The notes under the pieces are model-generated. The model made no database searches, was not told where the DNA came from, and was given only the letters and a program-made list of their open reading frames with translations. DNA of 64,000 nt, from the NCBI GenBank assembly GCA_000004985.1, contig GG738911.1; one strand, written 5' to 3'. The position numbers and the translations under genes were made by a program. This DNA comes from Naegleria gruberi (lineage: Eukaryota). Shown one piece after another: positions 3,001 to 62,878 of the stretch (position 1 is its first letter; each line of letters opens with the position of its first letter).

Positions 3001-6000
3001 ACCTGACCTTTTGTAAGAGAATACTCCTGCACTAACTTTCCATTCATAGGAAACCAAAGTTGAGCAATTTTTTCCACAACCTAAAAAGTATCTAATAGTA
3101 GTTGTGTTCAGAGTGATACTGTTAATAACAGTTGAAATGGTTTGATCTTGAGTACCTGAAACTAGAACAGATGGTAAACCAAAGCTTCCCAAAGTTGGCT
3201 CATTCAATTCATACTTGACTACTAATTTGAATTGTTGCAGGTTGGATTTTCTGCTTTGGAATGGTTGAATATTAGCAATGGATGCATTTGCAATGAAAGT
3301 GTAATTGCCTGCTTGAGTAACATCAGTTAATGTAGAGTTGATTAACAAACGATTGGATTCCACATAGAAAACCACATTTTGTCCATCACATTCAACACAT
3401 GACCAGGTGTAGGAAATATTTGGACTTTGGCTTAATACTTGATCTATTAATTGAATTTCCACACTGACAGTCTTGTTATCAAATTCCAAATAGACAACCT
3501 CTTCATATTTTGTAATGTTAATTTGGAATGGACTAATATTCACTGAACAATCCTTATTGGTGAATCCTTCAACACAAGAACAGTAATTTGGTGATACACA
3601 TTGTCCCTTTCCTGAGCAAACACTCGATTCGTTGAACAAGGTACCAAAGCAATTGTGCAATTCACATGTTTGGCCATAATATCCTGGTTGACATGTGCAG
3701 TTATCTGGAACAAAGCATGAACCATGACTTGAGCAAACGTTGGTATCATTAAAAAGAATTCCAAAGCAATTATGATTTGAACAATCAAATGAAAAATATC
3801 CTTCTTGGCATGAACAGTTATTTGGACTCAGACAAGTTCCATGTTTGAAACAAACATTTGAAGAATTCTTATGAACTCCAAAGCAATCATGTTCAGAACA
3901 TTCAGGTCCATAATACCCAGCTTCACAGAAGCAATTATTTGGAGATAAACATTGTCCATGAGTGGAACAAACATTAGAATTGTTAAATAAAGTGCCATAG
4001 CATTGGTGAGCTTCACACTGATATCCATAATATCCTGGTTGACATGTACAATTATTTGGAACTGGACATGAACCATGGCCACTACAAACATTCATTGTAT
4101 CATTGAATAAATGGCCATAACATTCATGGTTGGAACAATCAAATGAAAAATAACCGGTCTGACATGAACAATTATTTGGACTCTAACAAGTTCCATGCTG
4201 GAAGCACACATTCGAAGAATTCTTATGAACTCCAAAGCAATCATGTTCAGAACATTCAGCTCCATAATATCCAGCTTCACAGAAGCAATTATTTGGAGAT
4301 AAACATTGTCCATGAGTGGAACAAACACTTGAACTATTGAATAGAGTACCATAACAGTTGTGCAATTCACATGTTTGCCCATAATATCCAGCTTGACATG
4401 TGCAGATATTTGGTGAGTCACATGAACCGTGAGATGAGCAAGTACTACTATTTAAATGTTCCACTCCAAAGCAATTGTACAATCCACAATCAGATCCATA
4501 GAAAGGAACTAAACAACTACAATTATTATAGGCTGTACATGATCCTCGTCCTGAACAGACAGTTGAGGAATTCCTAGAAGCACCATAACAATCATAAATT
4601 TCACAATTCTATTTTCATCACATGTACAATTATTGAATGAATGACATTGACCGTGTGAGGAACAAATATTTGGATTGTTTGAGAGAACTCCATTACAAAT
4701 ATTAATTTCACAGAATTTGCCAGTATGTTGCTCATCACACTGACAAGTATCGAATGCTGTACAATTACCAAATCCAGTACACACATTTGTTTCATTTTTC
4801 AATATTCCACTACATTCGAATAATTCACAATCTTCTCCATAATAACCCTCTTGACAGGTACAATTTTCTGGTGAAGAACATGATCCATGTCCTGAACAAA
4901 CCATTGAAGAATTATTGATAATTCCATTACACATATAATTTTCACAATTATCTCCAAAGTATAACTCTGGACAAGTGCAATTATTCTTTGAATCACATGA
5001 TCCTACTCGAGAGCATACATTTGGTTGATCGAATCTAATTCCACCACAGTCATAGTACTGGCATTCAGATCCATATCTTCCTGCTTGACAATTACTACAT
5101 GTATTTGGTGAAGAACATGTTCCAAATCCACTGCAAACATTTGGATCACTTGGTGCAAGGCCATTACAATAATACAATTCACAAAATGTTCCTGAATATC
5201 CTGTTTGACATGAGCAAGTATTTGGACCAGTACATGTTCCACGACCATTGCAAACAGTACCAACTTGAGAATAGAGAATACTATTGCAATAGTAATTTGA
5301 ACACGTACTTCCTGAATATCCAGAATAGCATGAGCAACTATCTCGAGCATTACATGATCCATGTCCACTACAAGCACTCGATCCATATAATCCATAACAG
5401 AGATATTCATTACACTGAGAACCAGACCAAGTGTAGGTCAGTGAATTTCCAAAATACTGATTGGCTGTCCAGCAAACTTCCTTCTGGGCACCATAGAGTA
5501 CCAAATTACCATCTGATATTATCATTGATGATGTTGATGTTGATGGAATAAACAACTCACTCCATCATAACAATTCAATAGAAACTTACCTGATTGCATG
5601 ACTAATCTGAAAGGGGCTGTACCAGAGGTGCATGCAGAAGAAATTGTCTTTAAAACACCTCCCTGGTCTCGTATCTCAAGAGTGCCATCCAATGACAATA
5701 CTAAATTATACGGAGCTGTTCCTTGTCCATTAGTATCAGATGCCCAATAGGCAACCAATCCAGGTTTATAAAGCACCAAATTGCCATCCACTTGTTGTTT
5801 CAATTGGTAAATTCCATTCGATGAGTAAATAGAATTTGATTGATAGAGGTTGTTGGTTCCACCCGATGAATACAGAGTGTTACCACTTGTTGAATCCACA
5901 CAATAGCAATTATTTGACCCAGCACAGAAGCCATGTCCACCGCATGAGTTCAAATCTGTGGCCGAATAGCCATAACATGTATTGACAGCCAAAACTGAGA

Positions 6001-10603: not shown

Positions 10604-12352
10604 TTATTCTAAATATCTAAATAAAAAATCCAATTCCAATAAACCTCTTCCAAAGCACATAATAATCAAGTCAGCAATCAAATATTTCTTCTTTCCAATT
10701 TCCACAACTTCGTCTCTAATATCATTAACAATAAGACTCAGAATAGATTCGCCTTCTTTTCTCATAGTGACAACTCTATACGATTCCACTAGCATTTGAG
10801 GATCAAGCTCTAAATTTTCCTTATCCATCAGACCTTTCTCCAACAATTGGCTGACGATAGAGTTTGCATTGAATGGCAACCATTTTTTGATTACTTCAAA
10901 AGATGAGGCAGTATGCCCTAAGGAGGTATGTTCAAATTTCAATCGGCATTCAAGGGAGCTTAGGAAATCAGAGAACTTGCACTTGAGAGAGCGATCAGGT
11001 TTTTGGAGCATTACGTGAACCGGAAAGTCAAATGCCAATTGACCATTCTTGCTCAATTCTGAGGGATCCAACAAGATATGGAAATCACCAAAAGAAAAAT
11101 ACTCTGCATATCTGCTTGCGCCCAAAGGTGGTTCCAATTGGAACAAACAATCTTGAGAATCATTATTGTTGAGAGCTTCTTTCAATGAGGAATTCATCTC
11201 GAATTTAGAAAAACTCTTCCATGCAATATGAGACAAATAATTGACCGTAATTGATTCGTACTCTCTTCTCTTGATAACATTGGGAAATCTAGCACCAAGG
11301 TCCTTCAATTGAGAATAAACCTTACGTGTTAGAGGTAGGTCAATTGAATGAGTTTCTAATACCAAGGAACAAACATAAATATCGTCTGAAGATATGTACA
11401 TAGTCTTTGAAACCTTGTCAAGAAACACATCTCCTGCTTTAAAGCAAATATCTCCAATCCAGATTTTCTTGATAATTGCATGAGTTGTCTTATCATAAAG
11501 AAACATATAGGTACTATCCCTCAAAACAAGATAATGATCCAATTCACCAACAAAACGCAACCAACACTGAAATTTGACTCGTTGTTCACAATTTGAGAAG
11601 TTTCTACCAGTGAATAATCTGAGCTCTGATGTTTTGTCCTCAGTTCTAGTATTAATCCACAATGCATCTCTATTAGAATCATAGGTTATAGAATATGTGT
11701 TTTCTAACCTCAAAGTATCAACAAAGTATTTGTGTTGTAAAGTACTTCCATCCAAAACATGAATCTGTCTATCATTCGAAAGAATGACTTCATTTCTGGG
11801 AAGTGAATATTCCAACAAATCAGCTTCCAGATTTGTAATTCCCAAATTCCTTCTTTGCAAAACGGTGAATTTCCCATTGGGATCGATTTTAGCCTTCACC
11901 AAGTCCTACACGATTAAATCATCTGGACTTTCGTCTGGAGGATTCTCCTGAACAATACACATTGGATAGAATGCAATAAGATCACCCAAATCACACCGAT
12001 GAATAAATTTCTTACTGTCCATGTCGAAGACATGCAGAAAACAATTCGAGTTTGGTCTATCACTACTTTCGGAAACTATTATCAATCGTTTCTTCATGTG
12101 GATTCTAAGGTCGAGGGTTGTCTCGATTTCTATTTGAAAAGTGTTCAGGTGAGATAGAAAAGCCTTCTCCAAGCATAGAAGAGTTGGAGTGGAAAGTTTC
12201 TTCTCCAACCATAAATGTGTGAAATGTTTCTCCAAGATTCCATCAATGAAAACTAAACGGACTGGTGCGTGAGAGTCAAGGCTTTTTTCAATGTTTCTGT
12301 ATTTAGCTTTAGGTTCGTAATCATTCACCTCAAAGATATGCTTTGTTTTCAT
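10604..12352 (-). pseudogene. Third tandem copy of the unknown-function paralog family. The reading frame is interrupted by a single in-frame TAG at 11906-11908 where the paralogs encode Tyr. It is either a nonsense-mutated copy or a base-call error.
   Basis: ORFs 11906..12352 and 10604..11902 are co-linear and in the same frame, separated only by TAG. The N-terminal half aligns with the N-terminus of 12577..14466 and 14500..16368 (EYEPK...RLVF(L/I)DGI(E/L)(K/N)H(Y/F)T...L(H/S)TPT(I/L)(T/L)CLE). The C-terminal half aligns with their C-terminal halves (DK(S/T)(S/T)H(M/A)(V/I)IKKI...YSIDKPL / YSIDLPL). Confidence 0.4.
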
Positions 12353-12576
12353 TTTTTTTGTATTCGAAACTAGCCTTTATTTCTGCCTCTTTCAGTTTCA
12401 CAATACGAATCACAAACAAGCCTTCGTTTTAAATTGAATGAGAAACTAACATGGCAGGATGTTCCGTTATGGAAACATGGAAATATTGGGATGAACTAAT
12501 CACACAACATTGATCACTAAACTTGCCTAATTGAATCGAATATAATCACTCCATAGTATGCACTAATAAATTCTTC

Positions 12577-14466
12577 CTAATCCTCGTAAATGTCATTGTG
12601 GAAACTAAATACTTCTTTTTCGATAGCCAATGCCAATAAATCCATTAATAAATATTCCTTATTATTAAAGATCACCACATTCTTCCTGAACTTTTTCAAA
12701 ACCTTTAGCAAGTCTCCAAAATTAGGTGACAATGTAATATTTCTATAAACGTCCAATAACTTTCCAGAATCGAGCTCAAGAGTTTGTGGATCAATTAATG
12801 AATTATTATTTAAAGATTTGTACATTTCTTGCAAGTTAAATTTGATCTCTTTTGTATAATAATCATTTTCAAGACCCACACTAACGCATGGTTTTAAAGT
12901 GTCCAGAAAATCTGATAATTTACATTTGACAGTGAACTCTTGTGGTACACAAAGATACACTGGGAAATCTGTCAAATTCTTTCCGTTTTGTTGCAAATCT
13001 GATTGCAATACTGCTAAATGGTAATCATCGGGACTAATTGAGTTTGCACCAATAATGTGAACTTGATCAATTGGCAAATAATCGGATAAATACTCTAAAT
13101 CTGGTTTGATATTTTGCAATGCAATAGTAAAATCTATAGATTTTAGCTCGTCAACTACTTGCTTAAGGTCACAATCCACAAACTCGGAAATTACTGAAAC
13201 ATCCTTAAACCCCTTAAATTCTACAAGTTGTTTAAATCCAAAGTTCATATTTGCTAGAAAGCTCACAACGTTTGGCACATTATTTTCCCTCACAATCACT
13301 TGGGGTAACTTTGCTCCAAGTCTTTCCAATTGCAAACATATTTCCTCACCCAAAGGTTTATCTATAGAGTAAGTGTCTAATTTCAATTCTAATTGATACA
13401 CTTGCTCCTTACCACATGAAAATATGGTTTTAGAAACTCTATCGTATGCGTAAGCCTCCATCAGTACATCATCTCCAATTTTTTTGATAACCATGTGACT
13501 GGATTTGTCAATTAGATACAGACCGTCCTCATATCTAAGGACATGAAACTTATCAAGCTCCATTTCAAACATTAATTCCACCATCCCAATACGATCATCT
13601 TGTTCTACAGAAAATAATATTTCACTCTTTGCAAAGGTTGGACCATAATATTTTCTCACATAATGCTCCGAACTATGGCCATTACCAAACACTAACAAAT
13701 AATCAGAATGGGGATAATAACGAACAACATATTGTGCGTCATCATCAATAAATGTATACTTGAACACCAAGCTATCTCCATCAAATACTAGAATTTTTCC
13801 AAAGTTCACAACCATTAACTCATTTCTAGGTCCAATAAATTCCAAATTTGCACAAGTAAAGCTATCTGCATCCATTACTGGTTCTACTTCTTTCATAATT
13901 GGGAACTTCTGATCTGGATCAAGTAGAATTTTCATCAAACAATAATCTTGCGAAATAGTATACAAGATTTCTTTCCCATCACCATTTTCTACAATGTGCA
14001 TTGCTATCACATTTCCATGGAAATGATTAATATCATATAGAACATTTCCACTCTCTAAACAAACAATAAGAATTGAAGCCTTGTTGTTGGCGGCAAGTAG
14101 CCACCTTTTGGTGGGATGTATTGTTATGGATGGTATGCCATAGTCTTCTTCCGATAATTTAAAGGTTTTAAGAGTGATGAGACTAGTCTCTTCCAAACAA
14201 GTTATTGTTGGAGTGTGGAGTTTCTCCCGAAGCATTGAATTCGTATAATGATTCTCCACTCCATCAAGAAATACCAATCTTGTGAGATTTTCAGAGTCAT
14301 CATTCTCTTCATCATGAAGGCTTTCAATTTTCTTCTTTTTTAATTTTGGTTCGTGTTCGCTGATAGTTTCTTCAAGAAGCCTTGATTTCATTTTTTTGTA
14401 AAATATTTCCATTCCATTTAGGTAATTAATGGATGTTAATGTTTGATTGATGGACCATTTAAACAA
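12577..14466 (-). CDS. Paralog family member of unknown function (629 aa).
   Basis: Full-length ORF, about 45% identical by eye to 14500..16368 along the whole length. Acidic N-terminus with a KKKK patch. No recognisable catalytic motifs. Confidence 0.6.
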   Translation of the reverse strand: MFKWSINQTLTSINYLNGMEIFYKKMKSRLLEETISEHEPKLKKKKIESLHDEENDDSENLTRLVFLDGVENHYTNSMLREKLHTPTITCLEETSLITLKTFKLSEEDYGIPSITIHPTKRWLLAANNKASILIVCLESGNVLYDINHFHGNVIAMHIVENGDGKEILYTISQDYCLMKILLDPDQKFPIMKEVEPVMDADSFTCANLEFIGPRNELMVVNFGKILVFDGDSLVFKYTFIDDDAQYVVRYYPHSDYLLVFGNGHSSEHYVRKYYGPTFAKSEILFSVEQDDRIGMVELMFEMELDKFHVLRYEDGLYLIDKSSHMVIKKIGDDVLMEAYAYDRVSKTIFSCGKEQVYQLELKLDTYSIDKPLGEEICLQLERLGAKLPQVIVRENNVPNVVSFLANMNFGFKQLVEFKGFKDVSVISEFVDCDLKQVVDELKSIDFTIALQNIKPDLEYLSDYLPIDQVHIIGANSISPDDYHLAVLQSDLQQNGKNLTDFPVYLCVPQEFTVKCKLSDFLDTLKPCVSVGLENDYYTKEIKFNLQEMYKSLNNNSLIDPQTLELDSGKLLDVYRNITLSPNFGDLLKVLKKFRKNVVIFNNKEYLLMDLLALAIEKEVFSFHNDIYED

Positions 14467-14499
14467 GCTTTACCAATTACTGTTAAATAATAAATTGAA

Positions 14500-16368
14500 C
14501 TATTCATCATTCTCAGAGTCATAAAAAGTTTCAGTTTGGAATTGTATCAATTCTCTTTTTCCACTAGCTTGTGCCATGACTAATAAATCTACCAATAAAT
14601 ATTCCGTCTTGTTGATTGTTACAATATGTTCCTTGAGTTCTTGATTAACCTGGAGCAAAGTACTAAACTGAGGTTTAGTTGCTACATTTCTGTAAGATTT
14701 TAATAATATGGTAGGGTTGAGCTCTAAAGAAATTTGAGAAATTAATGAATTATTCTTTAAAGCTTCGTACACTTCTTGCAACTTGAACTTGAACTCTTTG
14801 GTATCGTCATCCCTTTTAAGTTTCACACTAATGCATGGTTTTAGAGTGCCAAGGAAATCTGATAATTTACATTTAAATATATTCTTTTCTCGAATAACTA
14901 AGATTGGAAAATCTGTTAAATACTGTCCATTTTGATGCAAATCTGATAGTAATACTCCTATACAATACTTATCGCACCGAACTGAGTGACCACCAATAAG
15001 AAACACTTCGTCGTTTGGAAATTTGGTTGGAAAAAGGCCCTTTAAATCTTCCTGTACAATTGTTTTAAAACTAAAAGAGAAATCATAATGTACACCTCTA
15101 ACCTTGTCAAGTCTAACAGGCTTGTTTTCAATTATTTCATAATACTCAGAAATTAGTGATTGGTTCGCAACCCCTTCAAATTGAAGTTCAGCGAACGGCT
15201 TTGGTTCCGACCTCATTTGTTTCAAAAAGCTCACTGCATTTGGTGTATTGCTTTCCTTAACAATTACTCGAGGTAAATTTAATCCAAGTTTTTCCAATTT
15301 TAAACAAACATCCTCTTCCAAAGGTTTATCAATAGAGTAAGTGTCTAATTGTAATTCTAATTGATAGACTTTCCTCTCCCTAGTATATCCAAATATTGTT
15401 TTTGAAGCTCTATCGTAAGAATAGTTTTCTATCAGCAAATCAGTCTCAATTTTTTGGAGAAGTAAATGGTTTGATTTTTCGATAAGAAACAAGTCGTCTT
15501 CTACTCTCATTACGTAAAACTTATCAAGCTCCATTTCGAACAGTAATTCCGCAAGCCCAATACTATCATCCAGGTCAACGTACATTACCATTTCACTTTC
15601 TGAAAAGTTTGGTCCATAGTATTTCCTTAACACATGTTCCGGGTAATTATTAGAAAATACGAATAATTGATCATGAATTGGATTATAATGAGTGTAGTAT
15701 GTTCGATACAATTCACTTTCACTTGCAAACTTCGTCTTCACGAAAAATTCACCGTCAAATACTAATAATTGGTTTGTAAAACCCACAAATAACTCATTCC
15801 TAGATTCAATAAATTTCAAATCTGTAATATCACCAAACTGTAAGAATGATCTATGGTTCAAAATTGGTAAATCCCTCTCTGTATCAAGTTTGATTTTTAG
15901 TACTTCTCTATGGCTATACAAGAAGACAATATCATTATCCCCATGCTCACTCTCCACAATACACATTCCATAAACATCATTATCAATTTCTAATCTAAAA
16001 CTGTGCAATGTTACTCCACTCTCCAAACTGATAATTTTAAAACCAATATGATCAGAATCATCTTTTAAACAAGTAACAACAAGCAACCATTGCTTTTTTT
16101 GATGTATTTGAATGCATGATATTCCATCCGATATTTCAAATGTTCTACGAACAACAAGTTTAGCCCCCTCCAAACAAGTCATCGTGGATGGATTGCAAAG
16201 TTTCTTACAAAGCAATGAATTCATATAATGTTTCTCAATTCCATCAAGAAACACCAATCGGGTGCGATCGTCATCATTATTTAGATGATCTTCAATCTTC
16301 TTCTTTTTTAATTTTGGTTCATACTCGTATTGACCATCATTCATTTCCTCATCATTGTGTGATTTCAT
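14500..16368 (-). CDS. Paralog family member of unknown function (622 aa).
   Basis: Full-length ORF co-linear with 12577..14466. The three copies lie head-to-tail on the minus strand. Confidence 0.6.
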   Translation of the reverse strand: MKSHNDEEMNDGQYEYEPKLKKKKIEDHLNNDDDRTRLVFLDGIEKHYMNSLLCKKLCNPSTMTCLEGAKLVVRRTFEISDGISCIQIHQKKQWLLVVTCLKDDSDHIGFKIISLESGVTLHSFRLEIDNDVYGMCIVESEHGDNDIVFLYSHREVLKIKLDTERDLPILNHRSFLQFGDITDLKFIESRNELFVGFTNQLLVFDGEFFVKTKFASESELYRTYYTHYNPIHDQLFVFSNNYPEHVLRKYYGPNFSESEMVMYVDLDDSIGLAELLFEMELDKFYVMRVEDDLFLIEKSNHLLLQKIETDLLIENYSYDRASKTIFGYTRERKVYQLELQLDTYSIDKPLEEDVCLKLEKLGLNLPRVIVKESNTPNAVSFLKQMRSEPKPFAELQFEGVANQSLISEYYEIIENKPVRLDKVRGVHYDFSFSFKTIVQEDLKGLFPTKFPNDEVFLIGGHSVRCDKYCIGVLLSDLHQNGQYLTDFPILVIREKNIFKCKLSDFLGTLKPCISVKLKRDDDTKEFKFKLQEVYEALKNNSLISQISLELNPTILLKSYRNVATKPQFSTLLQVNQELKEHIVTINKTEYLLVDLLVMAQASGKRELIQFQTETFYDSENDE

Positions 16369-16649
16369 TTTTTAAATAATTTACAATTAATTCTTCATCA
16401 TCAATAATATATTTTCATCAATTTTTCTGAGCATCGGAATGCACACACTCTTTCATGGGAACCATCATCCTTACAAATTGTTGAAAAAGATGTTGTTGTG
16501 TCGCCTCTTTAATTTATTGTAAATTCCGTTTAATAATTTGCCCAAAAAAGTCGTCCAGCAAAAAACACTCGACACCTCTTTGTGTTGTATCGACTTGGCT
16601 TCACTTTAAGGCTTAAAAAACAACACGTTGCGTCGAGTTTACAATTTTT

Positions 16650-16662
16650 TTATGGCGCGCAA
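16650..16662 (+). promoter_or_regulatory. GC-rich 13-mer TTATGGCGCGCAA (palindromic GCGCGC core) in the divergent promoter region between the paralog gene start (16368) and RPL41 (16747).
   Basis: Exact 13/13 match to 22723-22735. Expected chance occurrence in this AT-rich window is far below 0.01. Both copies lie about 220-280 bp upstream of a minus-strand ATG. Confidence 0.4.
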
Positions 16663-16746
16663 CTTCACTTTCGCGAGAAAATAAGCTTAAATTGATTGAC
16701 GCTGTTGAATATTGGAGTTTTCATCTGCAAAAAAAATACAATAACC

Positions 16747-16887
16747 ATGAGAGAAAAGTGGAAGAAGAAGCGTATGCGTAGACTTAAGAAAAAGAGAAGG
16801 AAGGTAAGTGAATATTCATAGTATGGTGTGGTTTCTTAAACTGTTATTTTAATATTATTATTACAGATGAAGCAACGTGCCAAGTAA
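16747..16887 (+). CDS. RPL41: Ribosomal protein eL41 (RPL41), 25 aa. Two exons (16747-16803 and 16867-16887) with a 63-nt intron at 16804-16866 (GTAAGT...TTACAG).
   Basis: Spliced product [25 protein letters not shown], versus the canonical eL41 [25 protein letters not shown]. Too short to appear in the ORF track. Confidence 0.8.
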
Positions 16888-17292
16888 ATTAACTTGAATT
16901 GTTTTGCTCTTTCGTAAGAAGACTTGCACCTTTGTGCAACCAATTTTGTTCCGAGAGAATTTTCAATAAAAGTACAAAGTTTCGAAACGTAATTGTCCAG
17001 CTATTGTACAGAAAACTAATCGATAATTTTACAGCATGACGATGAGCCAATTTATCAAAATTTAGTAACCGAACAGCTGCAACGACGAAGTGTTGTCCAG
17101 AGACTGGGGAATATTTATGCTTTGCTTTAAATTACTGTGATGATACTATTTATCTGCACAAATTCATCAAGTAATGCTCCATCTTGTTACTTCACAACAT
17201 CAAGTGCTCCGACTGCATTTCAAATTCCTTCCCAGCACAGCCAACAATAATTTCATTCTTTAAAGCCTAACGTTCATTACGCTCAAGTTTAT

Positions 17293-20200
17293 TTAATGTA
17301 AAGTTTCATCTTCTGGTTGAATTTCACTAGATACATCTTCACCAATGAAATTATCAGCATTTGCATTCAATTCTTCACTGGTCAAGACAGCAGATTCGTG
17401 ATGCTTTGCAGAGAGGAGGTAAGTTTGTGTCATTCCCTTGCCCTTAACTTCAATCATTCTCTCTTCGAATGAAAAGCCCAAGTCATATACTCTCTCATAG
17501 GTAGACCGAGAAACTTGAATTCTTCCTGGCTTGGAATTTGATTCCATTCGAGAGGCTGTATTGATTGAATCACCCCATAAATCATAGGCAAACTTCTTAC
17601 GTCCAATGACACCTGCTACAACTGGTCCAGTGTTGATACCAATTCTAATGTTAACTTGTTCTTCAAATCTTCCCTTTCTAAAGTTGGAATTGAAAGAACG
17701 AATCACTCCAAAGGTATCAATGGCAAACTTTAAGACTCTTTCAGGATGGTCTGATTGAGCATTCAAATCATGCAAACCACCTGCTGCAAAGTAAGCATCA
17801 CCAATTGTCTTGATCTTTTCCAAATGATAACGATCTGTCAAATCGTCAAAGCCCATAACAATTTGATTCAACATTTGAACCAATTCATTAGGAGCTAATT
17901 TTGAAGATAAACTAGTAAATCCAACCATATCTGAGAAAAAGCAAGTGATATCAGCAAATTTCTCGGCAATCAATGATGTGCCATTTTTAAGTTTTGCTGC
18001 CACTGCTCCTGGTAGAATGTTCAATAATAAAGTTTCAGAGTTTTTCTTCTCCTCAGCAAGGAGAGCATTATGCTATATTATTGTAAGGTTTTAAGATGAT
18101 TATTATAGAATAGAACATGTAAAAAAACTAATAAAAAGAAAACAAACCTTCTTTTCTGATGTAATATCCTTAATAAAGCATGTGATAATTGGTTTCTTCT
18201 CAAAGAGAGTTACAAAAATATTCATTTTGGCTGGGAATGTAGTTTGATTCTTTCTAATACATTCCACGTCAAAGGATTCACCCTTTGGATCAAATTCTGT
18301 GACAGTTTGTTTCATACTGTCTACAGCTTTTCTAATTTCATCATGATGTTGTGGACACAGGAGTGTAAACAGCAATTTACCAATTACATCTTCCTGTTGA
18401 TTTCCAAACATTCTTTGAGCTGCTGGATTGAAAATTTCAATATCACCACGATGGCTACACAAAATGACGCCATCAACAGCAGCATTTAAGATATTTCTAA
18501 CTTTGGCATCTTCTCCCCCAACATTTCTCTTCTTGACAAATAATCGAGATAGGGCACCATCGCTGAGAGAGTGATAAAGAGCATAATTTCTCAATTGTTC
18601 ATTATTTTCAAATGTTTCAATTGATAAATAATTGAATAAGGACCTTAGAGAAAAGACATTCTTCCAGTGTATCCTTAAAAAGTAGTACATAATTACACAA
18701 CCAATAAGGTTGACTGTAAATCCAACAATGGCCAAAGCTGTTATTTGAGTTACCATTGGAGTTGAGGATTTAACAGCAAAAATAAGTGAAAAGTCAATCA
18801 ACTTGAACGATGCAGTATTAGCCAAAAAAGCAACTGCATAAAATTCTTGCAAGATAACAAGCAAGTCTTGATAGTTGGAAGTTTTGGTTGTTGCAACCAA
18901 ATCTTCGATAATTCTTGAGGATTTGAGAATAGTATCCTGAACCATATAATCAATACCAAAATCACATTGTGTGTAATTGTCTGGTTTGTATCCTTTTGGA
19001 ATGACCATGGCATTGTATATTGAAGAGACAGATTCAATTGTACAATTCAAATCCCCACGAATCATGTGATCAGTTTCTGGAAACATACCGACAACTAGAG
19101 TTTCGTACGCCTTAACAGCAGAACCATACATACACAAATTCCAAAAGTATCTCAATTTGAAAACAACATAGTCAAAGTTAGTCCTTAGCACTTTGATATC
19201 AGATTCTGCGAGTATGGGTATTTCATCTAGTCCATAATTGTTCAACATATTTGTGGAAGAATGATAGAATTGTTCTGCAACATTGAAAGACAATCGTTGT
19301 AAGAATGCCATTGCATCAAAACCATCTTCCATGGTAATGTAAGATTCAAAACTGTACTTGGAATTTCCAAGAGTTTCTTTAAGGAAAATACCCAAACTGA
19401 CAGACACAGCAATCATTACAAAAATACCAATAATGATAAAGATATTCTTCGGTTTAAGAATGGAGGTCTTGGGAATATGAATAGAAACTTCATCACCAAC
19501 TTTCTTACCAAGATCATGGAAGAGTTTACCAACTTCATTCTTTGACACATGGGTGTGAATTAGTTTGATTTGCTGTTTCATTGTAGAGAGTTCAAATCTA
19601 CTATATAGCAGGTAAATTGTTGCATAAACCACATAGAACGCAAGAACAACAGATGTAAATATGGTAAAGGTGTCGTTAATTCTTAGGGCATCCTCCTTTG
19701 CAGAATCTGTAAAAACTCTGCAAAACTTTTGATAGGCATAAGTGATGGTTTCTTGATTTCTGTACATGAGCATAAACCCATAACTATTTAAACTATTCAT
19801 TAATTGGTCGTCTCCACTGTTAACCATTTGATCAGAAAGCTTTACAAGAACATTGGTAATATCAGTAATGGTCACATTTTCTGCCATGGTTTCGTTGTAA
19901 AACTTGGTTTCCATTGTTGCATCTGATTGCATTTTTGGAACATAGAAAGGATAGTAAAATTCATGGTAATGTGAGTAAACTGATGGATTGAATTTGGCAT
20001 CATAGGCCTTTTGTTGTAAATTAACCAAGATTTGTCTCAATTTTACAATGTTCTGTTTCAGCAATTTAGGGCTAAGGAACATTTCACTGGTCATTGTTTT
20101 TGGAATTGAAGAAGACGTGGAATTCATTAAATTTACAGTAGATTGATAGGCACGAACTGTTACCAACATATTTGACAATGCAGCTATTGGCGAACAAGCA

Positions 20201-22500
20201 TCAATCACGTTAATAACATTCAATGTAACGACATCTGAAAAGTTGAGGGCAATTACGATACCAGCAATTAAAAAGGCAAATCCCAACCCAGCAAATAAGA
20301 AAAAGATGGTCATTTGAATATTTCTTGGTGCTGGCACAGAAAGCGCATTTCTAAATACCATTTCTCTCTTTTGTTCGCCAGAAACAGTATTTTCAATACC
20401 GTTGAAATTGTCAAAACTATCCTCAATACTACTCATTGTTTCATAATTCATTTGTGAAAAGGATTGAGGGTTTTCTACGGTAAAATTGATAGCATTAACG
20501 GAGGCTTGAATCAACTTTCTAGAGTTATCAACTGTCTCAGCTGTTCCAACAGAATTAGAGTCTGGATGTACTCTATTCTTTCTTGCTAGTTTGGCTTTGA
20601 AAGCAGCACCTCTTTTTTGGAAGTTACCTTCATCTTCCTCAAGAGTCATTGCTTCATTAAAGTATTCACTGGCAAGGTCCTTATTAAACTTGATATTCTC
20701 CAAATAGTTAGCATACATTCTCAAGACAGTCTTGTCGTTATAGTAGAGCGATAGTAAGCTGTTGAACATGTTATCACACTCCTCAATGAGAACGGCATTA
20801 CGAGAAGCAATGCTTTCAATCTTTTCATAGTTCACTATCTCTTGCATTTGCTCCTTCCAAAAATGGCGATGGAGAGATGTAATCTCAAGCATGGATTTTT
20901 CAATCTTTGAAAAGGTAGCTTTAAGATCGATTGCATTCTTTTGTCCCCTTATTCCCTCAGTAGTAGAAGTTTCAACTTCTTTCAATCGTTGACCCAGTAA
21001 AAATCTCATGTACAAATTTGGTCGTTGCTTGATAGCCTTTTTAAGGAGAGCAAGTGCAAACGTGGACGCGTTCAATTCTTCTCCCATAAAGTAGGCAGCA
21101 ATGCATGCAGAGCTGTTCAAAATGTTTTGGTCACTGAAACCCTTCTGAGAGGAAATAGCCCTGATGAATGAAATGATAAACATCAAGTCTGCATTTTCTT
21201 CTTCATCCTTTAGCATTACTTCCACTCCCATTGTAAACCTCATGTACATGTCCATCTTGGAAAGGTTTCCATCGTCCTCAAGCTGTTGATAAATATTAAG
21301 GGCCTCTCTTTCAATGTTTTTATCTTGAATTGCTGTAATAAACTTCTTTCTCAGCTTTTTTACAATGATTCTTGAGTATATTTCTGCAATGACGCCTCCT
21401 AGAATTCCAAGAAGAACCACCAAAGCAAGAGTCATCATTGATAACCCCACACCCATAACATTATCATTGGTTGGATTAGCCAAACTTGTCACGAGACCAC
21501 CAATACTGGCACCAATACGAGCGCTTATTACCCCAGCCACTATTGAGTTCTCAAACCTTCTCATCATTGGGAAAATCTTGAATAGCAAGACTAATAATAT
21601 GAAGGAACACACCAGATGCACAATCGATCTAATGAATGCATAGTTGGCTGGTATTAAAAAGTGTACAAGCATGCCCAAAATGTTGCAAATAACTCCCAAA
21701 AGAGGAAGAATGGCACTATCTCCGATCATTGGGGTTGTGCTTAAGGGATGAGAATTTGGAAGCATGATTACAGTCAGTAACGCCTCAACTTGTAAGAGGA
21801 CAATGAATATTAAGGAGAGGGCCATCATGACAATGTTCCTCGTTTCAAAACATGTAACTGAATCAAATCTATTCAAATAGGATGTCGTAGTGGTCGTGGA
21901 GTTACTCAGCAGTGAACCAACAGCCACACTTGTAGATCCTTGTTGTTGCACCAAATTGTTGGTATTGTATCCATAGTCACAATCAACAAAGCTCGTGAAG
22001 ATGTAGGTCATTGGTGCAGAGAGAATAAGGAGAGCAAACAAGGAAATGTGAAACACATACTTCACATAGGGAATAAACTTGGAAGTGGATCTCACAGCTC
22101 TAATGGTGAGTGCAAAGGCTCCAAGAGCGAAAAGCACGAAAAACATTGAAATACTAGCAAGAGCAATGGCTCCATCATATGGAATAAGATCCAACGATAA
22201 ACTTGTTGTATAGTTCAATACTGTGAAAATCCAAGATCCCCAAACACCAAAGTTAAAGTGATGTGGACTCAGTAAGGGCATCCAAATAAAACTCCAAAAC
22301 AAGAGAATGTATAATGTAAGGGTCATGACAAATGTACGTGTTCCATGTCTTCTTGATGTGTTTTGTGCAGTGAATACAAAGGAAAGAAATTCAGTTCTAA
22401 CCTTGACTTGGAGAGAACTTGCCGACTCTGAGACAATGCTTTCAGAGTTTTGAGAACTATCCGAGCCAATAAAAGAGGCTCCAGCAATAGAACTTCTCAT
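17293..22500 (-). CDS. Class III adenylyl/guanylyl cyclase. N-terminal multi-TM block, TPR-like region, second TM-flanked sensor region, PAS domain, C-terminal cyclase catalytic domain. Two exons (22500-18148 and 18072-17293) with a 75-nt intron at about 18073-18147.
   Basis: ORF 18103..22500 ends in a PAS-like segment (...VDGVILCSHRGDIEIFNPAAQRMFG...). The donor AAG|GTTTGT and acceptor ATATAG|CAT join it in frame to HNALLAEEKKNSETLLLNILPGAVAAKL. The catalytic motifs follow: FSDMVGFT, KIKTIGDAYFAAGGL, WGDSINTASRMES. Confidence 0.8.
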
Positions 22501-22722
22501 CTTGTTCTGATGATATTAACCGGAAAATCAAAATATCTATTACTAAGGCTTTAAAATTAAAGCCCAAGCAATCACTATTAAACAATGTTGTTGTATTGTT
22601 CTTGTTGTTCTTGGTGAAGGTGAAACCAAAATAACAATCGGTATTATCGTTAGAGTTGAACCGGTTTTTAAGGAAGGAGGAGAGGTAAGGCGTTTTTTTC
22701 TGTTCTGAAAACAAGTGGCGTA

Positions 22723-22735
22723 TTATGGCGCGCAA
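22723..22735 (+). promoter_or_regulatory. Second copy of TTATGGCGCGCAA, about 223 bp upstream of the cyclase ATG.
   Basis: Exact 13-mer repeat of 16650-16662, in the same orientation relative to the downstream minus-strand gene. Confidence 0.4.
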
Positions 22736-22917: not shown

Positions 22918-25900
22918 TTATTGGTATTCTTCTTCTTCGACTTCAATATATTCAACCTCTTCACCTTCAGCAAGTGTGATTGGTTCTCCATTTTCGTCAA
23001 CATACTCATACTCGACTTGTTCTTCCACTTCTTCCTGTTGTTGTTGTTGCTGTTGTGGAGTGTTAGCCGTTGTTGTCGGTTTTTGTGTTGGTGAAGATAC
23101 CTCTGGTTTAATGTCGCTCTTCTTAATACTTGCTCTCGAGTTTCTGACATTTCTGGAATTTGGTGTTGAAGATCCTGATGAACCTGTATCGGAACTTTCA
23201 GTGGTGTTTGGACTAGTAGAAGCAATTGGAGCCAGTGGTTTCTTTGGATTGAACTCGACAGACATGTAATCTTGATCCAAGAAGAAGGTCTTGATAAAAT
23301 CAATGTTAGAAGTAGATTGGGCCTTGTGTCTTTGAATAATTTCATTAATGTGGCTTCTTCTGGTTGGGAATGGCTTTCTGTATTGCTTTTGCTTATATCT
23401 CACAGCCTTGTTAGCATTAATGGCAGTCATTCTCACCAGTGGTCCCAAGTTCTTCTTATCCACAATCATTCCATCAAGGAGAGGTCCGAAAAGTGGAACT
23501 TCTGGCTTTGTATAAATTCTTACCCTAAATAAATATGTTTCCTTATGTCTTTGATATGGATAAACACAGATGTGAACAAAGTTAAATTGAGAAGGAATTG
23601 TCCATGGTTTGTAATCTCTGTCGTGCTCGCTCCAAACAATGTGGACAAAATCGTTACCGACGTGACGTTTCTTTTGGATTTGTTGCGAGTCATTGACCTT
23701 AGTTGGCATTCTTGTAACATCGTGGAAAATCACCTCAGTTGTTGCGTTTGAGTAATATGGAGCAGTATTACCAGTAGTCAAATTTTCATCTAAACCTCCC
23801 ATAAAACCACCATGAGTTCTCATATCAGCATCCCAACCAAGAGATTGAACAAATTCCTTGTAGATTCTAGAGCCTGATGTTTCATCATTTTTCAAAATAT
23901 CCTTTTGGGCTTCTTGTTGATTGGCAACATAGATGAGACCAACCTTGATGGTTTCTCTTTCAGTTAACTTGTCGAGTTGTTTAAGAGATCTGTAGAATCT
24001 ACCGTTGGCATTTACCAAACTGAAAGAAGCTCTACTGGTACCAGAGAGGAAACCAATATTATTGAGGAGGGATCTAAATGCCTTATGTACAGATTTGGTT
24101 AAATTATCATTTTCATAATCTGGCTTCTTTGGAGCATGAGCTTCGTTGAAACCAAGTGCTGGTGTATCCTNNNNNNNNNNNNNNNNNNNNNNNNNNNNNN
24201 NNNNNNNNNNNNNNNNNNNNNNNNNNNNNNNNNNNNNNNNNNNNNNNNNNNNNNNNNNNNNNNNNNNNNNNNNNNNNNNNNNNNNNNNNNNNNNNNNNNN
24301 NNNNNNNNNNNNNNNNNNNNNNNNNNNNNNNNNNNNNNNNNNNNNNNNNNNNNNNNNNNNNNNNNNNNNNNNNNNNNNNNNNNNNCGGCACATTCTGGGA
24401 AAACTTGAGTAACATAGTGTTGCAAAACTTCAAGCATATCAGTCTTATCAGTATCAATTTCAATATCATAGTGAGGATAATCGAGTTCTTCAGCACCTTC
24501 ATCTCCAGCCATTTGGCTTTCTTGTTCTTCAACCTTGATGGCTTCTTCTTCTTCATGATTTTCTTCGTCATCATCAGAATCTTCCTTAGTTTCTTGTTGG
24601 GCAGTTACTGGAACCTTGATATCTGGTGTTTCGAATGATTCCTTATCTACCTTCAAACCACCTGTTTGGTCGATATCAGCTGGCAGATCAACTGCTGCCA
24701 AATCTTGTCTGACAATTGGTTCAGCACGAGGATCATCAGCATCAAACAATTCTTCGTCACCACGATTAACAATGCTTGATACATAGAATGAGGCTCTATC
24801 TTCTTCTGGAGAACCAGGGCTATCAAAACCAGCTTTGGAAGCTCTTGGAGCATTTGAATTCTTGGCACCAGACTTGGATTCATCATCTACCAATTCATCG
24901 AATTCCAAATGGTCAATTCTAACCATGTTATCCTTCTTGAAGGTCATTGTTTCTGGAGAGTAAACTTGCTTGAATTCCCAACAATATTTACCAGTCATGT
25001 CACGTAAAATTACAACACAAGATTCAGTCTTGTTTGGATTTTCCATAATTGTCAACAAGGTATAATTGTTGAAAACAAAGTGGTGAACCTTTGGAGAAGT
25101 TACATACAAGCCATTTTCTTCTTGCAAGACATCAAATTCGGAAATTTCAGTACTCATTCTAGCAGCACCAATAGGAGTTGGGAATTGACTGAAAACGTTC
25201 AAAGCATAACACAACAAGCTTTCGGCAGCAGTAGCAATTTCCAAAGCACTGTCTTCCTTGCTGAGTGTATAATTTTCGAAAGAATACATCTTGGCTCCTC
25301 TATCAGCTGAGTCTTCAGTGGCAGCTTCAGTTACAGTATCCTTTTGTGGAGTCAACAATACACTCAATGAAACAACAGATAAACCTCTATTGATAGCACT
25401 GAAAAGCATTGAGGCAACTTCCTTGCTTTCCAAAACCTTCATTGGAATGTATTGCAAAATTTCAACAATGGAATAGAACAAGTGTTTGAAAATGCTCCAT
25501 TGTGCCAAGGCAGAATCAGAATCCTTCAACTGAGAGGACAAGGCAGTACAGATGGTCAACAAGAATGTACGAATGGTTGGAACACCTAACTTGGTGAATA
25601 AACCTAAATGAGCCAATGTAACTACAGCATCGTGAGCAGCACAGGCAACATCAGCATTCTTGTCAACAAAGAACTTGATGAACATTTCAACAATTTGTCT
25701 GGATGGATTAGATCTTCCGTTAACTCCTTCAAGTTGGAGCTCATTGTGGAGAATAGCATAGAGACCCCAAATACACTTGATTTGAACATCAACAAATCTG
25801 TCATCTTGAACACAAGATTGAAGTGTTTGAACAATACGACCTCTGAGTTTGGTGAAGGTGGTTACAGTTTCTGGGTTCAAATTTTCCAACTTGGCTTGTT

Positions 25901-38105: not shown

Positions 38106-38921
38106 TTTTTTTGTGGATTCTTTTTGATATCAACTTGTTGTAAACTCTTAAAGAGAGTGTGTAATCTCATATTCTCATGAGCTGTGATATATCTCAAGAT
38201 TGCACATACCATTGTCCGTAATGGATTTTCAAAAGTATCATAAAACATCCTTTCCTTGGACTCCGTGGTAGACCAATGTTTGGAAATGTTTGGGTTTTAT
38301 TCGTTCGTCTATTGTGAATGAAATAATCAAAACTTGGAAAGACTGTAAAATTGCCAAAATAGAGTTGGCTTATTCACCACGTATTCTTTTCACGGTTGGC
38401 ATAAATGCCATCACACAACTCGAATAAACTCAGTATTTTATGTTTTAATTGTTGAAAATAATCATAGGAAAACTACTTTCAAGTTTGAAACCATTGTTAT
38501 GCTCGCAACGAAATTTCCATTCAGAGGGTGAAGTCAGATTCTGAAATTGTCAAGTATTTAATGAGAAATGCAATAATTTATAAGTTTCTACTGGATGCTG
38601 GTAAGATATGACACATAATCTTTTCCAACCCAAAACCAAAAATGCCAAACTTCATACCGGCCCACAACAAAGCTAAAATCCAAATCCCACAACCCAGCGT
38701 AAATAGTGCCTGAGCACGTGGTGCAGTAGTGTTTTGGGCAATCGTGTCCAAATTTTTGTAAAGTATCGATTTTCCATTGCTTGGAAGAAGAATTTGGCGC
38801 CACAATTTCATATCTGAAAAAAAAGAAGCAAAATGCCACACCGCATTATTTTGTTAGATTTTATGGTGCGTACTTTTAAATCAAAGTGATTGATCATCAA
38901 ATCGTTAATAAATTATTCTAG

Positions 38922-43212: not shown

Positions 43213-43302
43213 NNNNNNNNNNNNNNNNNNNNNNNNNNNNNNNNNNNNNNNNNNNNNNNNNNNNNNNNNNNNNNNNNNNNNNNNNNNNNNNNNNNNNNNN
43301 NN
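43213..43302. other. Scaffold gap (90 N) in the OYE upstream region.
   Basis: N run. Confidence 0.99.
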
Positions 43303-48276: not shown

Positions 48277-48312
48277 CCACCAATCATTATTACCACAAAC
48301 CATTAAAAACAA

Positions 48313-50720: not shown

Positions 50721-51424
50721 TAATTACAGTATATACGGTTAACGCTTACAACGACAACTTCAAGGGCACCATTTATTAATATTTGGCGCCAATATTAATT
50801 AAAAAAAACAACCATACAACACACTTGGCTTATAATTGGAGGTGATATGTTGTATTAATATTCTTACAACTTTTAATACAACCAATAAGTTATTATTATA
50901 TTATAATTTAATATTTGTTTTAGTATTAATGGTAGTTAGATTATTAAAATTAGAAGAATAATAAAGAATAAATAGATTAAATATTCCCGATTTAGTCATT
51001 CGTGTAAGACATGAATTGATTTGTAATATATAAAACTAATCTCTCTCTTTACTTCTTGTAAGTAATTTATATTGGAATTTAAATTCAATTATTGTAGTTA
51101 ATTGTGTGGAAATGGAAGAAATGTGAGGAAATTTAGTATGAATATTGATGATCTTATCTTTTTGAAGATGATGGAAATAATGATGATAGTAATTAAGAAA
51201 ATATTTTAAATGATATAGTAGTGATGAAGATAACGATGGAAATAATAATGAAGTTGGAATAATATATCACATGTTTCCCTCTGCGGAATACTTTTTACCA
51301 TTCAGAACTTTATATCTGCTTAATCCAATTATGAAATTTTCTTAATCTAAACATTAATAAACATTCTTCTCGAGTTTAACAAAATTGACTTTGTGCATCA
51401 AAATCATCTATGTTTCGTTGGTCC

Positions 51425-51993: not shown

Positions 51994-52371
51994 GGTTTCT
52001 TTTTTTTTGAAAGTAACAATTACACGTTAGCCCAACAATTACAAAATTGGACCTTTACACCATCCAATATACATGGTAGTATCGGAAGAAACGCAAATTC
52101 CCCAACACAGAATTCTCCCTAGTTTTACTCAGCTGGAGTTGGGTTTAAAAGAATTCTGTTGGTTTTCTCGTGGTGTTCTAAATCATCGGTGATACATTGC
52201 TGCTTAGTAGGAAGTACTTCCACTCGAACAAACTTTTGGATTTGTCGCGGTTACACTGATGGATGCGCGTTGCTATTTTTTTAAAAAGCGTGTTTTGGCG
52301 CCTTTTTTGTGAATAACAGAACCACAACAAGAGAAGTAAGAAAACTTTATGTTGGTATTTTAGGTTTAGTC

Positions 52372-56657: not shown

Positions 56658-57019
56658 TTTTTTTCGGAGTTGGATTCGAATAATAATTGCCTAAACATGT
56701 CCATTAAAAGTGGTTGTGATATCTGAAATACCTCCTTCTGACAGATTATCAGGTTATGGTTACACAAATATAGAGTTGCCTTGCAGCAGTTGTACACTCA
56801 GTGAAATGTTAATTATTGAACTGAACAAGAGAGGTTAGAAATTCACAAGGGGAAAAACAACTTGGGATCTGTCATTCTACATTCTTGTGATGTTGGCAAA
56901 TGAATTATATTTTTTCAATATGAAATTTGTTCAGTAAATTTTGAAGAATGATTTTCTTACCTCAATGCAACACTTCTTAAACAAAGTTTTAAGCGGCGCC
57001 GGAAAATAAGCAAAAAAAA

Positions 57020-62214: not shown

Positions 62215-62878
62215 CTTGAATTTTTGAGTTTTTTACGTTGTTTTATTTGTTTTTGAAATAGAAATCATGCAAACAAATGAAAAATTTATCATGATGAGGA
62301 ATTTAAGGGAATGCACAGAGGTGGAGTGGTAACTGTGAACTCTAAGGCATCAACACTGGTTTATTAAGGTTGGGAAAATAGTGAGGAAGAGAGAACTCTT
62401 AATCGGAAAGTAAAAACCGTCCTTAGAGAGATTTATTGATGTTACAGCTTTTGCTTTGGAATTTGGTTGATAAATATCTTCCCGCCAAATTCCATCCAAT
62501 TTTTTTAAAAAAATAAAAACAAACCACAAGCCTTGCCCTCTCAAAAATTTCCAAGCGAAAAGAGAGTAAAAACAAGATAAATAGAAGACTTGTTTTTAGT
62601 GATGATAACTATCCCAAAAGAACCATAATGAATAGGGTGTGAACGTTCTGTTCATTGCCCATTCAACCACTTTGATGAATTAACCTTATGTCATAGTTAC
62701 TCTGAATAATCGATGTATTGATTTTTTATTGTTGTAATAATCGGATCCGAGACAACCATTGGGAAATATTGAATTTTTCTAGATCGTGCTGATTTGATAA
62801 TGTTCCTTTTAAAGACTGTTTAAAATATTACATTACGTAATTTATTAAAATATTATTAATTTAAATTTTAGAAAAAAA

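What the first reader, a model, noticed from the sequence alone, without database searches (positions are those of the whole stretch)
16650..22735. Exact GC-rich 13-mer TTATGGCGCGCAA shared by two promoters
The 13-mer occurs at 16650-16662 (85 bp upstream of RPL41, 282 bp upstream of the minus-strand paralog gene) and again at 22723-22735 (223 bp upstream of the cyclase ATG). With about 33% GC, the expected number of chance exact matches in 64 kb is below 0.01. The core GCGCGC is palindromic, so it could act bidirectionally. It is a candidate core-promoter or insulator element. Looser GGCGCC islands occur near other gene starts (about 50783, 52303, 56995).
Basis: seen in the sequence. Interest (0 to 1): 0.5.

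Follow-up and report, generated by a model that had tools for sequence, protein, structure and literature searches.

The report
E2F-like GC-core promoter motif in Naegleria
Two promoters in this Naegleria gruberi window share an exact GC-rich 13-mer whose core looks like a binding site for the cell-cycle transcription factor E2F; it belongs to a small set of such sites that are strongly enriched between genes here, so it is a plausible but fairly ordinary regulatory element.

Summary
The window is Naegleria gruberi DNA. TTATGGCGCGCAA occurs exactly at 16650 and 22723, both intergenic, and the stated distances to the start codons are right.

The "<0.01 expected" figure holds only for a word chosen in advance. 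About 315-346 repeated 13-mers arise by chance in 64 kb. A GC- and CpG-rich one appears in 3-5% of simulated windows, or about 1% if only non-coding DNA is simulated.

The flanks share nothing beyond 15 of 16 bases, so this is not a repeat element.

The stronger signal is the core. [C/G]GCGC[C/G] occurs 7 times against 1.07 expected. Six of these lie in the 18% of the window that is non-coding (0.35 expected there). They include three perfect E2F half-sites, TTTGGCGCC. A TTTGGCGGGAAG site lies upstream of alpha-tubulin.

The 13-mer matches the E2F palindrome TTTSGCGCSAAA at 10 of 12 positions. N. gruberi encodes E2F, DP, DEL and RB. The recognition helix of its E2F is identical to that of human E2F4.

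GGCGCGCAA recurs in a Willaertia promoter. A close relative of N. gruberi keeps the core but has an extra base inside the 13-mer.

Best reading: an E2F-type transcription-factor site, not a core-promoter or insulator element. Neighbouring genes are not classic E2F targets, and no genome-wide test was possible.

The parts
16650..16662 (+). 13-mer copy 1, TTATGGCGCGCAA (core GGCGCG). It lies in the divergent intergenic region between the minus-strand gene NAEGRDRAFT_74137 (ATG 16368) and RPL41 (ATG 16747).
   Evidence: Matches TTTSGCGCSAAA at 10 of 12 positions.
22723..22735 (+). 13-mer copy 2. It lies 223 bp upstream of the PAS/cyclase gene ATG (22500, minus strand) and about 185 bp downstream of the RalGAP-like gene stop (22918). 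On the cyclase strand it reads TTGCGCGCCATAA.
16669..16680 (+). Second E2F-like word, TTTCGCGAGAAA (11 of 12), 6 nt after copy 1. It is not conserved in the close relative L001.
38793..38804 (.). TTTGGCGCCACA, a perfect E2F half-site TTTGGCGCC. It is intergenic, upstream of the NHL-repeat gene (+) and of a 3-hydroxyisobutyrate-dehydrogenase-like gene (-).
50782..50793 (.). TTTGGCGCCAAT, 11 of 12 to the palindromic E2F site, with the palindrome TTGGCGCCAA. It is intergenic, 174 bp after the stop of the Ulp1-domain gene.
52294..52302 (.). TTTGGCGCC. It is intergenic, about 300 bp upstream of the minus-strand ORF whose ATG is at 51993 (signal peptide, NHL-like).
56993..57002 (.). GCGGCGCCGG, containing the GGCGCC core. 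It lies in a divergent promoter, 25 bp before the ATG of the RCC1-like gene (57020, +) and 338 bp from the ATG of the NHL/teneurin-like gene (56657, -).
62478..62489 (.). CTTCCCGCCAAA, which is the reverse complement of TTTGGCGGGAAG, the GGCGGG-type E2F word. It lies 267 bp upstream of the alpha-tubulin ATG (62214, -).
16747..16887 (+). RPL41 gene: exons 16747-16803 and 16867-16887, with a GT..AG intron of 63 nt.
14500..16368 (-). NAEGRDRAFT_74137 (622 aa, no Pfam domain). It is one of three tandem paralogs and shares the promoter region with RPL41.
17293..22500 (-). Multi-pass membrane PAS / adenylate-guanylate cyclase gene. A 1465-aa exon (18103-22500) is followed by the cyclase-domain exon (17293-18024).

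Best explanation
The shared word is most likely a short promoter cis-element whose working part is the GC core with its immediate flank (GGCGCGCAA, or TTGCGCGCC on the other strand), recognised by a winged-helix factor of the E2F/DP type. In this AT-rich, CpG-poor genome, nearly every run of six or more G/C between genes is of the form T/A-rich flank + [C/G]GCGC[C/G]. That form is the symmetric core which E2F and DP each contact through their RRxYD recognition helices.

Shown here: the motif family is enriched only in non-coding DNA; the 13-mer fits the family; and N. gruberi has the cognate proteins, with an unchanged recognition helix.

Inferred, not shown: that E2F/DP (or the E2F7/8-like DEL protein) actually binds these sites and regulates RPL41, the neighbouring paralog gene or the cyclase. 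The identity of the outer four bases (TTAT) in the two copies is probably coincidence within a T/A-rich flank.
For: 1. Core enrichment. SGCGCS occurs 7 times against 1.07 expected. In non-coding DNA it is 6 against 0.35 expected, with no simulation of 400 reaching 6. In coding DNA it is 1 against 0.78.

2. Related words. TGGCGCS gives 8 matches against 0.81 expected. TTTGGCGCC occurs 3 times in non-coding DNA against 0.01 expected. GGCGCCA and GGCGCCAA are the top enriched words that are not AT-rich in non-coding DNA.

3. Specificity. The window has only 14 runs of six or more G/C, 8 of them non-coding. Six of those 8 contain SGCGCS and one is CCCGCCAAA, against 1 of 6 coding runs.

4. Fit of the 13-mer. 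It matches TTTSGCGCSAAA at 10 of 12 positions. All six matches to that consensus at up to 2 mismatches lie in the 18% of the window that is non-coding.

5. The factor exists. N. gruberi encodes E2F (P0026; PF02319 + PF16421), DP, DEL and RB. Its E2F recognition-helix stretch [24 protein letters not shown] is identical to human E2F4 in the E2F4-DP2-DNA crystal structure 1CF7.

6. Relatives. The core GGCGCGCAA is kept at the orthologous site in a metagenomic close relative (L001, 91% identical promoter), while the adjacent bases changed. The same 9-mer is the only SGCGCS site in 47 kb of Willaertia magna, where it lies in a divergent promoter. In the relatives, 4 of 5 SGCGCS sites are intergenic.

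7. Precedent. In Cryptosporidium parvum, E2F-like words (DTTGSCGCCH, TTTGGCGGGAAV; core [C/G]GCGC[G/C]) are the most over-represented upstream motifs, including upstream of ribosomal-protein genes (PMC3734150).
Against: - Neighbouring genes are not classic E2F targets. They are RPL41, a domain-less paralog family, a cyclase, NHL/EGF kinases, an RCC1-like gene and alpha-tubulin.
- The 13-mer departs from the consensus in both flanks. The Willaertia copy lacks the T-tract altogether (8 of 12).
- The exact 13-mer is not conserved even in the closest relative, which has a 1-nt insertion (TTATTGGCGCGCAA).
- The neighbouring TTTCGCGAGAAA site is lost in that relative.
- In about 170 kb from N. lovaniensis, N. 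fowleri and Willaertia, the total SGCGCS count is not above shuffle expectation.
- No site lies upstream of the N. lovaniensis E2F gene.
- Counting matches to the 12-mer consensus at up to 2 mismatches is not significant by number (6 against 4.8).
- The sample is one 64-kb window. The word classes were chosen after looking at the data. There are no TSS, expression or binding data.
Confidence: 0.45

Rival explanations
1. Coincidence. Two unrelated promoters happen to share a GC-rich 13-mer, and the word has no function of its own.
For: Hundreds of repeated 13-mers are expected in 64 kb. A GC/CpG-rich one arises in 3-5% of random windows. The local alignment score of the two regions is only at the 90th percentile of random non-coding pairs. 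The exact word is broken by an indel in the closest relative. The word class was defined post hoc.
Against: Restricted to non-coding DNA the probability is about 1%. The core belongs to a family enriched about 17-fold in non-coding DNA only. GGCGCGCAA recurs in a Willaertia promoter.
Confidence: 0.25
2. It is a real cis-element bound by a different factor that reads alternating CGCG. Candidates are a CAMTA-type CG-1 domain protein (CGCG box, vCGCGb) or a lineage-specific factor. In this view GGCGCGCAA is a motif distinct from TTTGGCGCC.
For: GCGCGC fits vCGCGb. Three independent sites share GGCGCGCAA but not the T-tract. The core is 7 bases of G/C rather than the 6 of E2F sites. Five of the six CGCG tetramers in the window are intergenic (16656, 16672, 22729, 52246, 52266).
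Against: No evidence was obtained that Naegleria encodes a CG-1 protein; the literature search was uninformative and protein searches were exhausted. The word also fits the E2F half-site at 8 of 9 positions on one strand and 7 of 8 on the other, and a cognate E2F exists.
Confidence: 0.2
3. It is a core-promoter or insulator element. It would be a position-fixed element that directs initiation, possibly in both directions, or a boundary between transcription units.
For: The location is intergenic. The GCGCGC core is palindromic. Copy 1 lies in a divergent promoter.
Against: Distances to the ATGs vary (85, 223 and 282 bp for the 13-mer; 25 to about 340 bp for the family). Only about 7 of roughly 30 genes have such a word. 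Copy 2 is not between divergent genes. No insulator-type evidence could be obtained.
Confidence: 0.07
4. It is a remnant of a dispersed repeat or mobile element, or of a duplicated promoter.
For: The window contains tandem paralogs and other short repeats.
Against: There is no similarity beyond 16 nt in 300 bp around the two copies, on either strand. The flanking genes are unrelated. No Rfam family or tRNA was found in the window.
Confidence: 0.02

Closest known systems
E2F/DP binding site (TTTSGCGCSAAA; symmetric core [C/G]GCGC[C/G]; E2F4-DP2-DNA structure 1CF7)
   Same: The core GGCGCG is present. The flanks are T/A-rich. The location is a promoter. Canonical sites occur in the same window (TTTGGCGCC three times, TTTGGCGGGAAG once). 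The genome encodes E2F, DP, DEL and RB, and the E2F recognition helix is identical to that of human E2F4.
   Different: There are two flank mismatches (10 of 12). The GC run is 7 bases, not 6. The neighbouring genes are not replication or cell-cycle genes. Binding has not been shown.
E2F-like upstream motifs of Cryptosporidium parvum (Motif 3 DTTGSCGCCH, Motif 4 TTTGGCGGGAAV; PMC3734150)
   Same: The genome is an AT-rich protist genome in which E2F-like GC-core words are the standout upstream motif. They are found before many kinds of gene, including ribosomal-protein genes, and in either orientation.
   Different: That result rests on a genome-wide analysis with expression clusters; this one rests on a single 64-kb window. 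The 13-mer has one more core base than Motif 3.
CAMTA / CG-1 'CGCG box' (vCGCGb)
   Same: GCGCGC contains the CGCG box.
   Different: No CG-1 protein was shown for Naegleria here. The related TTTGGCGCC sites in the window lack CGCG.
YY1/Pho core ATGGCG in animal ribosomal-protein promoters (from my own knowledge, not tested here)
   Same: ATGGCG is present, and copy 1 lies upstream of a ribosomal-protein gene.
   Different: YY1 is a metazoan zinc-finger factor. Nothing supports an orthologue in Naegleria. Copy 2 is not at a ribosomal-protein gene.

Membership tests
E2F/DP binding site | Six-base symmetric core [C/G]GCGC[C/G] | tested here: met
   GGCGCG is present in both copies.
E2F/DP binding site | T-rich 5' flank and A-rich 3' flank (TTTSGCGCSAAA) | tested here: inconclusive
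   TATGGCGCGCAA matches 10 of 12. Half-site matches are 7 of 8 (TATGGCGC) and 8 of 9 (TTGCGCGCC). The Willaertia copy matches only 8 of 12.
E2F/DP binding site | Cognate E2F and DP proteins with the RRxYD recognition motif encoded by the organism | tested here: met
   NgruE2F is identical to P0026 (PF02319, PF16421) and carries RRIYD. NgruDP carries RRRVYD. NgruDEL and NgruRB are also present. The helix is identical to E2F4 in 1CF7.
E2F/DP binding site | Enrichment in promoter-proximal DNA | tested here: met
   In this window SGCGCS is 6 against 0.35 expected in non-coding DNA and 1 against 0.78 in coding DNA. A genome-wide test was not possible.
E2F/DP binding site | Association with cell-cycle or DNA-replication genes | tested here: not met
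   Pfam annotation of neighbours gives RPL41, a cyclase, NHL/EGF kinases, an RCC1-like gene, a Ulp1-domain gene and alpha-tubulin. In C. parvum the motif is likewise not restricted to such genes.
E2F/DP binding site | Physical binding by E2F/DP and dependence of transcription on the site | not testable with these tools
   Needs EMSA, PBM, DAP-seq, ChIP or a reporter assay.
E2F/DP binding site | Conservation at orthologous promoters | tested here: inconclusive
   The core is kept in L001, which is 91% identical overall and has an indel inside the 13-mer. Synteny is lost in N. lovaniensis and Willaertia. Both metagenome scans were empty.
Core-promoter element | Fixed position relative to the transcription start site | not testable with these tools
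   No TSS data were available. Distances to the ATGs vary from 25 to about 340 bp.
Insulator / boundary element | Blocks enhancer-promoter communication or separates chromatin domains | not testable with these tools
   No chromatin data were accessible.
CAMTA CGCG box | The word vCGCGb, plus a CG-1 domain protein in the genome | not tested
   The word fits (GCGCGC). The presence of a CG-1 protein in Naegleria could not be checked.
Dispersed repeat / mobile-element remnant | Extended similarity around the copies | tested here: not met
   Only 15 of 16 nt align within 313 bp around the two copies.

The most novel reading that the evidence does not exclude
E2F/DP, or the E2F7/8-like DEL protein, serves in Naegleria gruberi as a broadly used promoter factor rather than a dedicated G1/S switch. 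Its GC-core sites would lie upstream of roughly a fifth of genes, including a ribosomal-protein gene, signalling genes and a flagellar-type alpha-tubulin. Together with the situation proposed for Cryptosporidium, this would hint that broad E2F use is old or arises repeatedly in AT-rich protist genomes.
Probability: 0.2. Interest if true: 0.55.

Novelty: new member of a known kind. Interest (0 to 1): 0.3.

Why it matters
Searches of the held paper library found no description of promoter elements in Naegleria. A review notes that the transcription factors behind its rapid amoeba-to-flagellate switch are unknown. If the GC-core words are real E2F/DP sites, they give a first handle on cis-regulation in a heterolobosean. 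They also give a testable link between a conserved ancient transcription factor and non-cell-cycle genes, including a tubulin gene. If they are not, the finding is a statistical curiosity. Either way the claim can be settled cheaply with the public genome, RNA-seq and H3K4me3 data.

Tried and rejected
- Orthologous promoters: the RalGAP-like neighbour has clear orthologues in N. lovaniensis and Willaertia, but synteny with the cyclase and RPL41 is lost. The best cyclase relatives are paralogs or are not syntenic. RPL41, at 25 aa, is too short for the look-up tools.
- Two JGI metagenome scans, with the cyclase N-terminus and the paralog-gene N-terminus, found nothing.
- E2F autoregulation: there is no E2F-like word upstream of the N. 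lovaniensis E2F gene.
- Repeat or mobile-element origin: rejected.
- ncRNA or tRNA near the sites: none found.
- A bacterial-type promoter scan is irrelevant for a eukaryote.
- CpG depletion caused by gene-body methylation, with promoters protected: rejected as an explanation. Naegleria is reported to have very low 5mCG, confined to transposons (PMC12695648).
- CTTCACTTT, which occurs twice near copy 1, is not enriched in the window.
- TGTGTGGT next to copy 2 is only mildly enriched. It was not pursued.
Full report
**Identity of the window.** The 622-aa ORF at 14500-16368 (-) is identical to Naegleria gruberi XP_002670864 / NAEGRDRAFT_74137, on a 261-kb scaffold. The window is 33.9% G+C, and its CpG observed/expected ratio is 0.46. 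Genes have long exons and few introns.

**The observation.**
- TTATGGCGCGCAA occurs exactly twice, at 16650-16662 and 22723-22735, both on the + strand.
- Copy 1 lies in the divergent intergenic region between NAEGRDRAFT_74137 (ATG 16368, minus strand; 282 bp away) and a two-exon RPL41 gene. The RPL41 ATG is at 16747, 85 bp away, and the spliced ORF reads [25 protein letters not shown].
- Copy 2 lies 223 bp upstream of the ATG (22500, minus strand) of a multi-pass PAS/cyclase gene, and about 185 bp downstream of the stop of a RalGAP-like gene on the same strand.
The GGCGCC words at 50785, 52297 and 56995 are also there, with two more at 38796 and 55069.

**Is it more than chance?**
- The '<0.01 expected' figure is for a word chosen in advance. 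Sequences simulated with order-1 or order-3 Markov models of the window contain 315-346 repeated 13-mers.
- A repeat with at least 7 G/C and at least 2 CpG turns up in 3-5% of simulated windows.
- If only the 11.4 kb of non-coding DNA is simulated, with its own composition, the figure is 0.9%.
- The match extends to 15 of 16 bases and no further. The best local alignment of the 313 bp around the two copies scores at the 90th percentile of random pairs of non-coding segments.
- So the two copies are not parts of a repeat element. The exact identity is suggestive, not compelling.

**The stronger signal is the core.**
- The window contains only 14 runs of six or more G/C. Eight lie in the 18% of the sequence that is non-coding.
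- Those eight are: GGCGCGC twice (the 13-mer); TTTGGCGCC three times (38793, 50782, 52294); GCGGCGCCGG (56993); CTTCCCGCCAAA (62478, the reverse complement of TTTGGCGGGAAG); and CCGGCCC.
- SGCGCS occurs 7 times against 1.07 expected. In non-coding DNA that is 6 against 0.35, with no simulation of 400 reaching 6. In coding DNA it is 1 against 0.78.
- TGGCGCS gives 8 matches against 0.81 expected.
- GGCGCCA and GGCGCCAA are the top enriched words that are not AT-rich in non-coding DNA.
- The flanks of the three TTTGGCGCC sites share nothing else, so they are independent occurrences.

**What the words resemble.**
- TTTGGCGCC is the textbook E2F half-site. TTTSGCGCSAAA is the palindromic E2F/DP site, with the symmetric core [C/G]GCGC[C/G] (summarised in PMC3734150).
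- The site at 50782 matches 11 of 12 positions and the site at 38793 matches 11 of 12. The 13-mer matches 10 of 12 (TATGGCGCGCAA).
- A further word, TTTCGCGAGAAA (11 of 12), lies 6 nt after copy 1.
- All six matches at up to 2 mismatches are non-coding. Their number alone is not significant (6 against 4.8 expected).

**The cognate factor.**
- N. gruberi has E2F, DP, an E2F7/8-like DEL protein and RB. These are in the source data of PMC4862756.
- The E2F is confirmed as P0026, with PF02319 + PF16421. It has orthologues in N. lovaniensis, N. fowleri, Willaertia and Acrasis.
- Its DNA-binding domain aligns with human E2F4 in the E2F4-DP2-DNA crystal structure 1CF7. The recognition-helix stretch [24 protein letters not shown] is identical.
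- An unchanged specificity is therefore a reasonable inference.

**Evidence from relatives.**
- A 2.6-kb ENA metagenome contig (L001) comes from a close relative of N. gruberi and covers the copy-1 promoter at 91% identity.
- In that contig the core GGCGCGCAA is kept, but there is a one-base insertion inside the 13-mer (TTATTGGCGCGCAA). The neighbouring TTTCGCGAGAAA is disrupted.
- Synteny around the RalGAP-like gene is not conserved in N. lovaniensis or Willaertia magna. Orthologous promoters could therefore not be compared.
- About 170 kb of annotated sequence was fetched from N. lovaniensis, N. fowleri and Willaertia. SGCGCS occurs five times there, no more than shuffles predict. Four of the five are intergenic, where intergenic DNA is about 15%.
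- The single Willaertia site reads GGGCGCGCAAT. It has the same 9-mer, GGCGCGCAA, and lies in a divergent promoter.

**Against the E2F reading.**
- None of the neighbouring genes is a classic E2F target.
- The 13-mer's flanks deviate from the consensus, and the Willaertia copy lacks the T-tract.
- There is no site upstream of the N. lovaniensis E2F gene.
- Everything rests on one window and on word classes chosen after looking.
- The precedent of Cryptosporidium parvum shows that such a pattern can exist in a protist. There, E2F-like words are the most over-represented upstream motif and also precede ribosomal-protein genes. This does not show that it exists here.

**Rivals.**
- Pure coincidence remains possible (about 0.25).
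- A different factor that reads CGCG, such as a CAMTA CG-1 protein or a lineage-specific factor, could bind GGCGCGCAA as a motif of its own (about 0.2). I could not check whether Naegleria has a CG-1 protein.
- The core-promoter or insulator reading has no specific support. Distances to start codons vary widely, only a minority of promoters carry the word, and copy 2 is not at a divergent promoter.
- No ncRNA or tRNA is nearby.

**Verdict.** The 13-mer is best seen as one variant of a GC-core, E2F-like promoter word family that is clearly enriched between genes in this N. gruberi window. Its function and the binding factor are inferred, not shown. No description of such an element in Naegleria was found in the held literature. 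If it is real, it would be a new member of a known kind. It is a modestly interesting lead, and a genome-wide scan would settle it.

Noticed in passing
window 62478-62489 and 60871-62214: A GGCGGG-type E2F word (reverse complement TTTGGCGGGAAG) lies 267 bp upstream of a canonical, highly conserved alpha-tubulin gene. The best PDB matches of that gene are axonemal alpha-tubulins (E about 1e-271). In animals, E2F4/5 drive centriole amplification and ciliogenesis, and Naegleria builds basal bodies de novo. This is speculative.
   Followed up: partly
window 48132-48285 and 50693-50728: A unit of about 36 nt, GCCACCATTATAAATATTYATCACRGTTGC, is partly palindromic. It occurs four times just upstream and once just downstream of the gene pair 48313-50608, whose 3' part carries a Ulp1 (Peptidase_C48) domain. 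This could mark a mobile element or a repeated regulatory module.
   Followed up: partly
window 11906-16368: There are three tandem minus-strand paralogs without any Pfam domain (11906-12352 partial, 12577-14466, 14500-16368). The last shares its promoter region with RPL41.
   Followed up: no
window 3683-4310: Several GC-rich 13-mers repeat at a spacing of 351-354 bp inside the long minus-strand ORF 1-4182. This suggests an internal tandem duplication of about 118 codons.
   Followed up: no
whole window: The CpG observed/expected ratio is 0.42 in coding-like DNA but 0.74 in non-coding DNA. Naegleria is reported to have very low 5mCG, confined to transposons (PMC12695648), so gene-body methylation does not obviously explain the depletion.
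   Followed up: partly
window 9183, 22738, 28620, 31201: TGTGTGGT occurs 7 times against 2.2 expected. Four copies are intergenic and all on the + strand. One starts 3 nt after copy 2 of the 13-mer, and two share the 13-mer CTGTGTGGTGAAA.
   Followed up: partly
window 39069-40055, 44148-47196, 51679-51993, 52372-56657: This is a cluster of NHL-repeat / teneurin-type EGF / protein-kinase genes. Three of them have a GGCGCC word upstream, although the flanks of those words are not similar to each other.
   Followed up: partly
window 24171-24385 and 43213-43302: These are runs of N (assembly gaps). The first interrupts the RalGAP-like gene.
   Followed up: no
window 16401-16800: The RPL41 / paralog divergent promoter has the highest CpG density in the window, at 14-15 CpG per 300 bp.
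   Followed up: no
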